Assembly: GCA_048498835.1 (NCBI GenBank)
Contig: JBEHXF010000014.1
Location: 1-40,941 of the forward strand
Direction: 5' to 3'
From: Chlamydiota bacterium
GTDB lineage: Bacteria > Chlamydiota > Chlamydiia > Chlamydiales > SM23-39
DNA length: 40,941 nucleotides
The position numbers are program-made. This document shows positions 16,497 through 19,400 of the stretch, piece after piece (within the stretch, counting starts at the first letter, position 1; each line of letters opens with the position of its first letter).

Positions 16497-19400
16497 GCCC
16501 CACCAAATTTTCGCTCGGTGAGAAAATTTAAACAGGAGCGATCATAGCAACAAGGCCAAATTTTTTGCAAGAAACACAGTTAGAAGAGATTAAATTCCAC
16601 CGCTATTTCCTAAATATCTAACAATGAGTAATCTACAAAATGACAAGTCTTTTTTTATTCGAACATGCTATGGAAGGGTTTATGAGAATCGTCCAAGTTG
16701 CATCAGAATTTGCCCCCTTTGCGAAAGCAGGCGGCCTCGGCGAGGTCGTCGTCGGACTTTCCCGAGAACTGAGCCGCATTGGCGAGCAAGTCGATGTCAT
16801 CATTCCGAAGTACGATTTCATCAAACCCCTCCAACACCTCAAGCTCGAGATTCCCGAATTTAAATCGCTTGAAAATGGACGCCAAATCCCCAATGCCATG
16901 TGGTCCGCCGATGCCGAAGGATGCCATCTCCACCTTCTTGAAGTTCGCCACCCCTCAGGCTACTTTCATCGACCCACCATCTACGGCCATGACGACGATG
17001 TTCCGCGCTTTCTCTATTTCTGCAGAGCCGTTGCAGAATACCTCAAACTCAAAAAGCAACCGATCGACATCCTTCACCTTCACGACTGGCACACCGGCCC
17101 GCTCGCCATTCTCATCCGCGATCTTTTCTCGAACGACATTCAAGTCAAATCGATCGTCCTCTCTATCCACAATGTCGAATACCAAGGCAAATGCGCCTCC
17201 CACGATCTCTCTGCAATTGGACTCGACGGCGAAAGTTACCTCACTCCCCTCAAACTCCAAGACCACAATCTCAAGTATCCGCGAACCATCAATCTTCTCA
17301 AAGGGAGCGTCGTCTACGCCGATGCAATCGTCCCCGTTTCCCCCACTTACGCCAAAGAAATCCTCACACCTCCCTATGGCTTCCACCTCGACGCTACGCT
17401 GCGCAAATACAAATCCAAAATCCATGGCATTCTAAACGGCGTCGATCTCAATCTATGGGATCCGCACACCGATCCCCACCTCTCTACCTACTATTCAGCC
17501 ACCGACACTCTCTCGACTATCGCCTCTGCTAAACAGGCGAATAAACAAACCCTCATCAATCGATTCAAACTAGACAAAACAGCCTCACCTTGGGTTGGAG
17601 CCATCACCCGCCTCGTGTCGCAAAAATCCCCTGAACTCCTCGAACAAGCCCTCTACCAAACCCTCGAGCTCGGCGGCGCCTTTCTCCTCCTCGGCTCTTC
17701 GCCAAATCCGGCGATCCAAGCACACTTTGAAGAGCTGAAGAAAAAACACCTCAACAACCCGCGCGTCCTCCTCCATCTCGAATATGACGACGCGCTCGCC
17801 CACCAACTCTACGCAGCTCTCGACTTCCTCATTGTCCCTTCGCTTTTCGAGCCTTGCGGTCTCACCCAAATGATCGCGCTACACTATGGAACCCTCCCGA
17901 TCGTCCGTGCAACCGGAGGTCTAAAAGACACGATTGTCGATTGCGAAAATCCCCTCGCTCCAAGCTCTCATCGCAACGGCTTCCTCTTCCCCCATCCGAC
18001 GGCCGATTCGCAAAAGCAAGCCCTCGTCAGAGCCGTCCATCTCTACCGAACCAACCCTGCCACGCTCCAAAATCTCATTCGTCAAGGAATGCAAATCGAC
18101 TTCAGCTGGCAAAAACCCGCTCAAGAATATCTGAAGCTCTACCGAAAACTCATCGGTCAAAGCACTACTTCGCTTAGTTCTAGCAGCCTAAAGCGTCTCT
18201 AGAACTTGATCGGTAAATAAAAGAGGGCCGACGTCGAAGATCACCTCTTCAGAAACCTCAGTTACGAAAGCCTTCAACTTTTTTGAAGCCAACCGACTGT
18301 TTACGCTCGTATGGGCAGATCTTTTTTTCGTCATAATTTCATTATAACATTTATAACACAAATCTAAAGTTTTATCATGCGGATCTCGACGCCACCTCGA
18401 AGTCTTCGTTACTTTACAATTGGTGCAAGCTTTACTTGTTCGTTCCGCAAGAGCTTTTCTATAGCAGAGAGAACAAAGATCTTGGGTTTTAGTTTTCGGA
18501 TCTCTACCCCACTCTTTCGACTTTGTCACTTTGCAGATAAAACAGGTCTTGCTTGGAACTTGAGCAATAGCCCGTTTATAACAGCGAGAGCACAGATCTT
18601 GAGTTTTATTCAGCGGATCATGAAACCATTCTCTGGTCTTAGATACATTACAAACAGCGCAAGTTTTCTTTGCCATCGCCGCATGCGCAACTTTATAGCA
18701 GAGATGACAGAGATCTCGGGTGGTATCGCGGGGATCTCTCACCCATTTCCAAGCAGCTGTTGTCTTACATTCAAAGCAAACTTTATTTACAGAATTCCCG
18801 ATCGCTCTTCTATAACAATGCTCACATCGATAACGAGATGGATCTTGCGGATCTTTATGCCAGCAAGAAGTCTTAACCGATAAACAGAAAGAGCATTCTT
18901 TAACGAGATTGATATTCAGTGAAATGGACTTATCCAACAAAGAACTTACATTCATTTGCTCTCTACAGAGTTTCCAGCGCCTTGCGAATGTAAATCCGAT
19001 TCGAATAAAAATAATCACACGCTGAAATGACCGTATAAATCGCAGCCACCGTTACGGCAAACAGGCTCACTTGCTGCAAGAGCTGCAGGGACAAATAGCC
19101 CATCGAATAGGGAATCATCATCAACACAATTAAAAACGCAACGACTGCTTGAATCACCGCCTTCACCTTGCCGCTCATCCGAGCCGCCAAAGCGACCCCC
19201 CTCAGCGCGCACAACGTTCTCAATGTACTAATGAAGAACTCGCGGTACAAAAAGACGAGAACCAATAAAAGGGGCAATTGAACAAACCCTTGCGTGAAAG
19301 TCAAAAACAACGAGATCCTCGTGATGCTATCGGCCATCGGATCGAGCACCTTACCCAAATCGGTCACCTGATTCATCCGCCTCGCCAAAAATCCATCAAA

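What a model noticed while it worked through the whole genome (the two positions that open the first line are those of the whole stretch)
18188..18955. An orphan protein made of five tandem GATA-type zinc fingers (candidate host-DNA-binding effector)
g00779 (255 aa, no row in any supplied table) consists of five tandem ~39-aa repeats, each a C-x2-C-x17/18-C-x2-C finger with the GATA signature (T..W..DP......LC..CY), followed by a basic tail. GATA fingers are DNA-binding modules of eukaryotic transcription factors; a bacterial protein with five in a row, in an obligate intracellular lineage with a type III secretion system, is best read as a eukaryote-like effector aimed at host DNA.
Evidence so far: Pfam scan: PF00320 GATA E 8e-11, 41.8 bits (cut 26.8). 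Each repeat alone: GATA matched by 5 of 5 (32.0, 17.4, 16.8, 15.1, 11.5 bits). One repeat modelled with the five repeats as alignment: pLDDT 90.1; Foldseek PDB: the 11 best chains are all GATA fingers (2gat, 2vus, 1y0j, 4hc7, 8j48, 4gat, 6gat, 8vg0, 3dfv), TMq 0.69-0.79, rmsd 1.5-2.2 A over 34-39 residues, 26-35% identity, prob 0.92-0.99; FYVE, LIM, ZZ follow at prob <=0.4 mostly. PF00320 in genomes: 13 of 400 Chlamydiales at E<=1e-4, 1 of 49 other SM23-39, 0 of 2 congeners, 0 of 14 controls. No homologue of the whole protein by word search in 5.8 billion proteins.
(Added by a program. Inside this text positions count along the whole contig: contig position 1 is position 1 of the stretch shown here. 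"Call 12" and the like, gene names such as g00115 and contig names such as C1 are that model's own, and its searches are not shown. The text may have been shortened before it was handed on; [...] marks where a part breaks off. The agent that wrote the report below was given it as the finding of a first reader that could run no searches.)

Follow-up and report, generated by a model that had tools for sequence, protein, structure and literature searches.

The report
Chlamydial GATA-like tandem zinc-finger effector family
A bacterium that lives inside eukaryotic cells carries a protein with five repeated zinc fingers of a eukaryotic DNA-binding type; relatives in other chlamydiae vary mainly at the DNA-touching positions, suggesting injected gene regulators with a mix-and-match DNA-reading code, which is untested.

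Summary
The gene is real: 255 aa, five 39-aa repeats at exact 117-nt spacing, all 20 cysteines kept, and a GATA-like fold (pLDDT 84.6; best Foldseek hits GATA3/GATA1). Two claims were wrong. Every finger is C-x2-C-x19-C-x2-C, not x17/18. It is also no orphan: it has a paralogue and relatives in 10 of 400 sampled phylum genomes, and one chlamydial contig carries 13 such genes head to tail. The fingers are not classical GATA: the DNA-contact Arg is kept in 1 of 5, the Asn in 0 of 5, and CG becomes CY. WGATAR binding is therefore unlikely. New here: repeats vary most at positions equivalent to GATA3's DNA contacts, in the 50-finger array (1.67 vs 0.51 bits) and in 25 of 27 other proteins including this one. 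The protein also has an NLS-like tail and Tup1/Groucho-type motifs. It was inserted between pgsA and glgA, and the genome has a type III secretion cluster. Best reading: an injected host transcription-factor mimic with TALE-like modular specificity (0.6). Secretion, nuclear entry, zinc and DNA binding are all untested, and relaxed selection could also explain the variability.

The parts
18188..18955 (-). Gene for the 255-aa five-finger protein (P0001); ATG 7 nt after the pgsA stop; last 15 nt overlap the convergent glgA end; GC 40.9% vs genome 46.2%
18932..18955 (-). N-terminal MNVSSLLD: fits the Tup/EH1-type motif Phi-x-[VI]-x-x-[IL]-[LM]; may also or instead be part of a Ser/Asn-rich secretion signal
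   Evidence: 3 of 1125 soluble own ORFs have it in the first 12 residues; 1 of 1125, itself, with a following N/D; motif definition PMC4943189 passages
18815..18895 (-). Finger 1, C21-C47, C-x2-C-x19-C-x2-C
18698..18778 (-). Finger 2, C60-C86, x19
18581..18661 (-). Finger 3, C99-C125, x19
18464..18544 (-). Finger 4, C138-C164, x19
18347..18427 (-). Finger 5, C177-C203, x19; most GATA-like (30.8 bits alone; the only one keeping the Arg after Trp); its helix runs on to residue 236
18272..18325 (-). Residues 211-228, KR-x12-KKLK: bipartite NLS-like stretch (consensus recalled, not from a call)
   Evidence: pattern in 12 of 970 soluble own ORFs
18218..18238 (-). Residues 240-246, FDVGPLL: fits EH1 F-x-[VI]-x-x-[IL]-[LM] in an acidic low-confidence tail; the Pro is unfavourable for the expected helix
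   Evidence: (7 of 1125 in the last 45 residues)
16640..18202 (+). glgA-type glycogen synthase, convergent neighbour (flank of the insertion)
18963..19562 (-). pgsA-type CDP-alcohol phosphatidyltransferase, upstream neighbour (flank of the insertion)

Best explanation
P0001 is a type III-secreted, nucleus-targeted mimic of host transcription factors. Shown: five treble-clef, GATA-like folds in tandem (model), each net basic, in a chlamydial genome with a T3SS cluster. Inferred: each finger binds one Zn; the protein is injected, imported by the basic stretch at 211-228, and its fingers read successive DNA sub-sites with the same face GATA uses, but with different residues in each finger, so the target is a longer site other than WGATAR; the short Phi-x-[VI]-x-x-[IL]-[LM] motifs recruit a host Tup1/Groucho-type corepressor (or the acidic tail a coactivator) and change host gene expression. 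Repeat number and the variable residues are reshuffled between lineages, as in TAL effectors.
For: Fold: pLDDT 85.5 and 84.6; top 4 Foldseek rows GATA3/GATA1, E 5e-4 to 1.3e-3; the 16 best of 27 PDB sequence matches are GATA fingers. T3SS export-gate gene in own genome, E 2.5e-230, next to cdsU- and copN-like ORFs (names recalled) and in 5 of 5 carrier genomes checked, one in pieces. Variability on the DNA face: positions mapped from the GATA3 contact list in PMC8611019; 50-finger array 1.67 vs 0.51 bits (8 vs 14 positions, p 0.003), p 0.009 against 9 polar-consensus positions only, 45 distinct signatures in 50 fingers; pN 0.33 vs 0.12; 25 of 27 other proteins, P0001 0.88 vs 0.47. K[KR]x[KR] in 19 of 23 divergent and 11 of 16 canonical chlamydial proteins vs 242 of 970 background. 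Corepressor-type motif with N/D in 17 of 39 proteins from 6 of 17 genomes vs 14 of 1125. One relative fuses fingers to a SET domain (P0038); own genome has 6 SET matches and a NEL ligase. Recent insertion between glgA and pgsA.
Against: No experiment. In the array pN at the DNA face (0.33) only roughly equals pS (0.22 there, 0.38 elsewhere), so relaxed selection fits as well as diversifying selection; solvent exposure was controlled only by a crude proxy. The corepressor motif is absent from 11 of 11 other named divergent proteins and 35 of 37 listed bacterial-like representatives, and the final N/D was chosen after seeing the data. P0001's N-terminal composition is unremarkable (75th percentile). 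The bipartite pattern is in 1 of 39 family members. pTM 0.44-0.50: finger packing unresolved. Foldseek TM-scores are about 0.3, LIM domains rank next, and the best VIA Z is 3.8. The host is unknown.
Confidence: 0.6

Rival explanations
1. Injected effector whose fingers bind host proteins or RNA rather than DNA (GATA fingers also bind FOG, NmrA and SAP05; LIM-like scaffold or decoy).
For: PDB titles show GATA fingers in protein complexes (1y0j, 2vus, 8j48) and LIM domains rank 5-11; classical contacts are lost; four fungal-type relatives (two named Peniophora) have Arg-rich, acid-poor N-termini resembling mitochondrial presequences, hinting at organellar RNA/DNA binding in eukaryotes.
Against: Variation sits on the face GATA3 turns to DNA; the flanking W+2 and C4+3 positions stay K/R in 81% and 68% of 115 fingers; each repeat is +3 to +7.
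Confidence: 0.17
2. The gene acts inside the bacterium (own regulator, DksA/TraR-like) or is a recently acquired, drifting gene whose variable face is simply unconstrained.
For: Placed 7 nt behind pgsA, probably co-transcribed; not found in 5 of 5 congeners; pN about equal to pS at the variable face; zf-dskA_traR matched 2 of 30 fingers at E 0.014.
Against: Strong purifying selection on the scaffold; NLS-like and eukaryotic motifs enriched; no NCBIfam or PHROG match; repeated lineage-specific expansions; the two Lys-rich variable codons after C3 drifted to Arg/Ser/Asn/Gln/His/Thr with only 1 Asp and no Glu in 100 residues.
Confidence: 0.13
3. A classical GATA factor mimic that binds WGATAR sites.
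For: Pfam GATA above cut-off; other chlamydial families carry classical fingers (Arg 14 of 15, Asn 14 of 15); finger 5 keeps the Arg and is followed by a basic stretch.
Against: Arg in 1 of 5, Asn in 0 of 5, Gly to Tyr in 5 of 5; fingers score 15-32 bits on a canonical eukaryotic model vs 35-39 on divergent eukaryotic and 36-48 on other chlamydial divergent fingers.
Confidence: 0.07
4. Assembly or contamination artefact (eukaryotic DNA in a MAG).
For: GC 5 points below the genome mean; genome is a MAG.
Against: Intronless, flanked directly by glgA and pgsA that are adjacent in congeners; relatives sit among bacterial genes on records named Chlamydiae, and classical GATA genes lie in 1-, 2- and 4-contig genomes.
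Confidence: 0.03

Closest known systems
GATA transcription-factor zinc finger (PF00320; GATA1/GATA3/AreA, plant GATA)
   Same: C-x2-C-x17-20-C-x2-C spacing, T-x-x-W, hairpin plus helix treble-clef fold.
   Different: x19 in all fingers; Arg329/Asn339/Gly342 equivalents lost; CY signature; five fingers at a 39-aa period with 12-residue linkers instead of one or two; bacterial; contact positions hypervariable rather than fixed.
TAL effectors (architecture recalled; named as the one direct DNA-targeting effector family in the abstract of PMC5570926)
   Same: Bacterial protein with tandem repeats, variable repeat number, a few hypervariable positions on a fixed scaffold, NLS-like stretch and a terminal regulatory motif; T3SS in the genome.
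   Different: Unrelated fold (Cys4 treble clef, not helical hairpin); about six variable positions per repeat; repression-type motif; function not shown.
Divergent tandem 'CY-type' GATA-like proteins of eukaryotes (Peniophora, Boothiomyces, Terramyces, Bathycoccus)
   Same: x19/x20 spacing, W-[YH]-K and C-x2-C-Y, 3-5 tandem fingers, same variable face (15 of 18).
   Different: Chlamydial set has a conserved [DN]P-x-D-x-T-x-D loop and NLS/regulatory tails; these eukaryotic proteins are themselves uncharacterised.
SET-domain nucleomodulins (Legionella RomA, C. trachomatis SET protein; passages of PMC7542358)
   Same: Eukaryote-like domain in an intracellular bacterium aimed at host chromatin; one relative (P0038) fuses fingers to SET.
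   Different: P0001 has no enzyme domain; it would act as a sequence reader.

Membership tests
GATA zinc finger (PF00320) | C-x2-C-x17-20-C-x2-C | tested here: met
   x19 in 5 of 5; definition from PMC10437121 passage
GATA zinc finger (PF00320) | Pfam score above gathering cut-off | tested here: met
   41.8 vs 26.8 for the whole protein; finger 5 alone 30.8; 4 of the 5 fingers among 16 of 30 matching at E<=0.05
GATA zinc finger (PF00320) | Treble-clef fold (hairpin + helix) | tested here: met
   models; Foldseek; VIA best Z 3.8 to GATA1, weak
Classical GATA transcription factor | DNA-contact Arg329 and Asn339 equivalents (W-R, C-N-A-C-G) | tested here: not met
   Arg 1 of 5, Asn 0 of 5, Gly 0 of 5 vs 26, 26 and 25 of 28 in canonical eukaryotic fingers
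Classical GATA transcription factor | Binds WGATAR; binds zinc | not testable with these tools
   needs experiment
Type III-secreted nucleomodulin | T3SS in the genome | tested here: met
   PF00771 E 2.5e-230 in a cdsU-cdsV-copN-like cluster; this Pfam family also covers flagellar FlhA
Type III-secreted nucleomodulin | N-terminal secretion signal | tested here: inconclusive
   crude composition score at the 75th percentile for P0001; family mean high but members not independent
Type III-secreted nucleomodulin | Nuclear localisation signal | tested here: inconclusive
   pattern match only, 12 of 970 background
TAL effector family | Helical 33-35-aa repeats with RVDs (recalled) | tested here: not met
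   39-aa Cys4 repeats, no such Pfam match; analogy only
EH1/Tup-interaction motif | [FY]-x-[VI]-x-x-[IL]-[LM] or I-x-I-x-x-L-L outside domains | tested here: inconclusive
   two matches in P0001; PMC4943189 itself warns the motif is poorly specified without F/Y; binding untested
DksA/TraR C4 finger | Pfam match above cut-off | tested here: not met
   no match for P0001; 2 of 30 family fingers at E 0.014

The most novel reading that the evidence does not exclude
Environmental chlamydiae have built a second, TALE-independent family of modular DNA-binding effectors from a eukaryotic GATA-like finger: about six variable residues per 39-aa repeat set the sub-site, arrays of 1-7 repeats are reshuffled in gene clusters, and short motifs recruit host Tup1/Groucho corepressors, alongside a separate set of classical GATA mimics.
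Probability: 0.3. Interest if true: 0.92.

Novelty: new variant of a known kind. Interest (0 to 1): 0.78.

Why it matters
A 2017 paper (PMC5570926, abstract) counted one family of effectors that targets DNA directly. A chlamydial family of transcription-factor mimics would show symbionts steering host genes by sequence-specific binding, and the 50 natural finger variants on one scaffold make a recognition code directly testable and possibly useful as a compact programmable DNA-binding module. It also exposes an uncharacterised tandem GATA-like subtype in fungi and algae. Five searches pairing GATA with chlamydial or effector terms and a broader one (25 of 333 listed) showed no paper describing it; subscription papers and supplements were not seen, and domain tables in supplements of chlamydial genome papers may already list PF00320.

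Tried and rejected
1) Both pgsA and P0001 end in LETL-stop, suggesting a target-site duplication: not significant (821 of 5000 shuffles; congener ends 39-311 of 2000), rejected. 2) Finger tree (155 rows, 39 columns, quick search only): 6 of 152 branches starred; P0001 fingers group with G010, the array and unnamed proteins at SH-aLRT 80, apart from canonical GATA (88); no donor can be named. 3) Word searches: 4 hits each, of which one was an unrelated multihaem protein; this explains the 'orphan' verdict. 4) Sequencing runs: none was listed. 5) Viral contigs: 0 motif matches; BFVD fold search gave TM about 0.15 matches only; PHROGs and NCBIfam none for P0001. 6) ESM Atlas: all hits under 0.9, leads only. 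7) Paper searches for GATA contact residues found nothing usable; one structure paper was not held. 8) The four non-chlamydial motif matches gave no multi-finger ORF and are treated as chance; one chlamydial match (L073) also gave no printed finger ORF. 9) No complex prediction was run: the partners in question are DNA or eukaryotic proteins.

Full report
Observation. The ORF at 18188-18955 (-) encodes 255 aa. Five fingers start at C21, C60, C99, C138 and C177, each C-x2-C-x19-C-x2-C, matching a five-copy DNA repeat at exact 117-nt spacing. Repeats share only 57-74 of 117 nt yet keep every Cys, the Trp and the Tyr, and up to 11 of 21 shared residues use different codons: a real gene under selection. 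Pfam gives GATA 41.8 bits (cut-off 26.8) and DUF7685 30.7 (cut-off 27).

Fold. Residues 96-212 with 14 sequences model at pLDDT 85.5 in the best of five models (others 45-71); the whole protein with 38 sequences reaches 84.6 in five consistent models, each finger a hairpin plus helix, the last helix running to residue 236; pTM is only 0.44. Foldseek ranks GATA3/GATA1 first (E 5e-4 to 1.3e-3, TM about 0.3), then LIM domains; VIA-align's best is GATA1 at a weak Z 3.8. A profile of 30 fingers finds 16 GATA sequences ahead of everything else among 27 PDB matches.

Not an orphan. P0001 matched 3 of 41 related genomes, its own included, with a two-finger paralogue on contig C9. A three-finger profile matched 4 of 103 genomes of the family, 0 of 5 congeners, and 10 of 400 sampled from the phylum. 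The exhaustive profile search gave 532 proteins at E<=0.001 and 65 at 1e-10, of which 150 were listed; these include classical eukaryotic GATA factors. A DNA motif scan of 185,579 genomes gave 14 loci: 10 from 6 records named Chlamydiae and 4 others without a multi-finger ORF. One chlamydial contig (JABDCQ010000007.1) holds 13 head-to-tail ORFs with 1-7 fingers each, coupled by ATGA overlaps at the 5 junctions printed. One relative is labelled Anaplasmataceae by its source, not verified. Look-alike fingers occur in Peniophora, chytrids and Bathycoccus. Separately, other chlamydial families carry classical GATA fingers, also in 1-, 2- and 4-contig genomes (13 of 400 at E<=0.001, 11 over cut-off, 0 of 14 controls).

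Context. glgA and pgsA abut with no gene between in the 4 of 5 congeners whose locus reached that far, so the gene is a lineage-specific insertion, 7 nt behind pgsA, GC 40.9% vs 46.2%. The genome has a T3SS export-gate gene beside cdsU- and copN-like ORFs (names recalled), 6 SET matches (congeners 1-5) and, in the window, a NEL E3-ligase-like gene.

Not classical GATA. A GATA3 paper (PMC8611019, two passages, partly computational) lists Thr326, Leu327, Arg329, Arg330, Asn339, Ala340, Leu343, Tyr344, Lys346, Leu347 and His348 among residues in DNA or dimer contacts; I mapped them by the Trp and Cys anchors. Canonical fingers keep Arg and Asn (26 of 28 each in eukaryotes, 14 of 15 in chlamydiae); P0001 keeps Arg in 1 of 5 and Asn in 0 of 5 and has CY for CG in 5 of 5 (its anchor for finger 2 was off by one Trp, corrected). 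P0001 fingers score 15-32 bits on a canonical eukaryotic model, 35-39 on divergent eukaryote-like fingers and 36-48 on other chlamydial divergent fingers; both eukaryotic sets came from a search seeded with P0001.

Variable face. I first noticed the pattern by eye in the array, then tested it. Among its 50 complete fingers, the 8 core contact-equivalent positions average 1.67 bits against 0.51 at 14 others (p 0.003; p 0.009 against the 9 with a polar consensus), giving 45 distinct signatures; pN is 0.33 there and 0.12 elsewhere, pS 0.22 and 0.38. As an independent check I gave 31 hand-picked chlamydial or bacterial-looking proteins, array excluded; 27 had three or more fingers, and 25 of these were more variable at the contact positions (0.65 vs 0.42, p 6e-6), P0001 0.88 vs 0.47; for eukaryote-like proteins 15 of 18 (21 given). 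The taxonomy of most of these is unknown and they are related. The result fits a modular code but also relaxed constraint on an exposed face.

Short motifs. Against 1125 soluble ORFs of the own genome (crudely called, P0001 included), the EH1 pattern occurs in the last 45 residues of 7, and a bipartite NLS-like pattern in 12 of 970; P0001 has both. It also begins with MNVSSLLD, fitting the Tup-interaction spacing described in PMC4943189 (passages); 3 of 1125 have this at the start. The motif followed by N/D (my post hoc addition) is in 17 of 39 named chlamydial finger proteins from 6 of 17 genomes (10 of 11 array genes tested, 6 of 16 canonical ones) against 14 of 1125, but in none of the 11 other divergent proteins and in 2 of 37 listed representatives. 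K[KR]x[KR] is in 30 of 39 against 242 of 970. One representative joins five fingers to a SET domain.

Mechanism. Shown: gene, repeats, fold, family, insertion, T3SS gene, variability pattern, motif matches. Inferred: zinc binding, secretion, nuclear import, DNA binding, corepressor recruitment. I put an injected transcription-factor mimic at 0.6, protein or RNA binding at 0.17, bacterial or drifting gene at 0.13, classical WGATAR binding at 0.07, artefact at 0.03. It works like a TAL effector in architecture and belongs to the GATA fold family, but is a member of neither the TAL family nor the classical GATA factors.

Literature. Searches returned 0 papers; two searches returned 2 each and one search listed 25 of 333, none describing bacterial GATA-type effectors in the listing. 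Passages were read in PMC4943189, PMC8611019, PMC10437121, PMC12366366, PMC5570926, PMC7542358 and PMC13229535; the last three have no occurrence of GATA in the main text. No supplement was read. Verdict: real, larger than reported, a new variant of eukaryote-like nuclear effector; interest 0.78.

Noticed in passing
L079-L081 (JABDCQ010000007.1:7766-17005): Array of 13 head-to-tail genes, 1-7 fingers each, ending in an RKRK-type stretch and an LDVSGILD-type motif; one ORF spans an N run and one is two units fused.
   Followed up: yes
L040-L068 (G053, G165, G233, G238, G242, G296, G312, G350, G371, G401): Classical GATA-finger genes in other chlamydial families, some in tandem clusters (G401, G312), several ending in M-x-I-x-x-L-L-N-like motifs and some with LP[PS]I-like motifs.
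   Followed up: partly
G000:C9:42907-43302 (L005): Two-finger paralogue (x19, x20) inserted among housekeeping genes next to a radA-like gene; both G000 genes begin MNV.
   Followed up: partly
P0038: Five CY-type fingers fused to a C-terminal SET domain: a candidate sequence-targeted histone methyltransferase; source organism unnamed.
   Followed up: partly
P0028, P0033, P0044, P0048: Fungal-type tandem CY fingers behind Arg-rich, acid-poor N-termini resembling mitochondrial presequences (two named Peniophora).
   Followed up: no
P0037: Many finger-like repeats followed by an HNH-like C-terminus (HNH resemblance recalled; only phrog_28061 matched).
   Followed up: no
window 4844-6781 and 6781-8703: Two tandem paralogues of about 640 aa (31% identical), each with a C-terminal HicA toxin-like domain above cut-off and no other family match.
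   Followed up: no
window 8700-9920: NEL E3 ubiquitin-ligase-like gene (IpaH/SlrP-type domain) with two paralogues on contig C5.
   Followed up: partly
window 19706-20668, 24399-26130: Two clusters of three short ORFs with no family above cut-off except a marginal CUT hit and no paralogue at E<1e-4; the first cluster was not found beside pgsA in 24 relatives.
   Followed up: no
G371:C1:1363495-1365514: PF00771 gene is in several pieces with in-frame stops in this single-contig genome.
   Followed up: no
P0154 (MBS3903211.1): Six-finger relative labelled Anaplasmataceae bacterium by its source; either a second bacterial lineage or a mislabelled bin.
   Followed up: no
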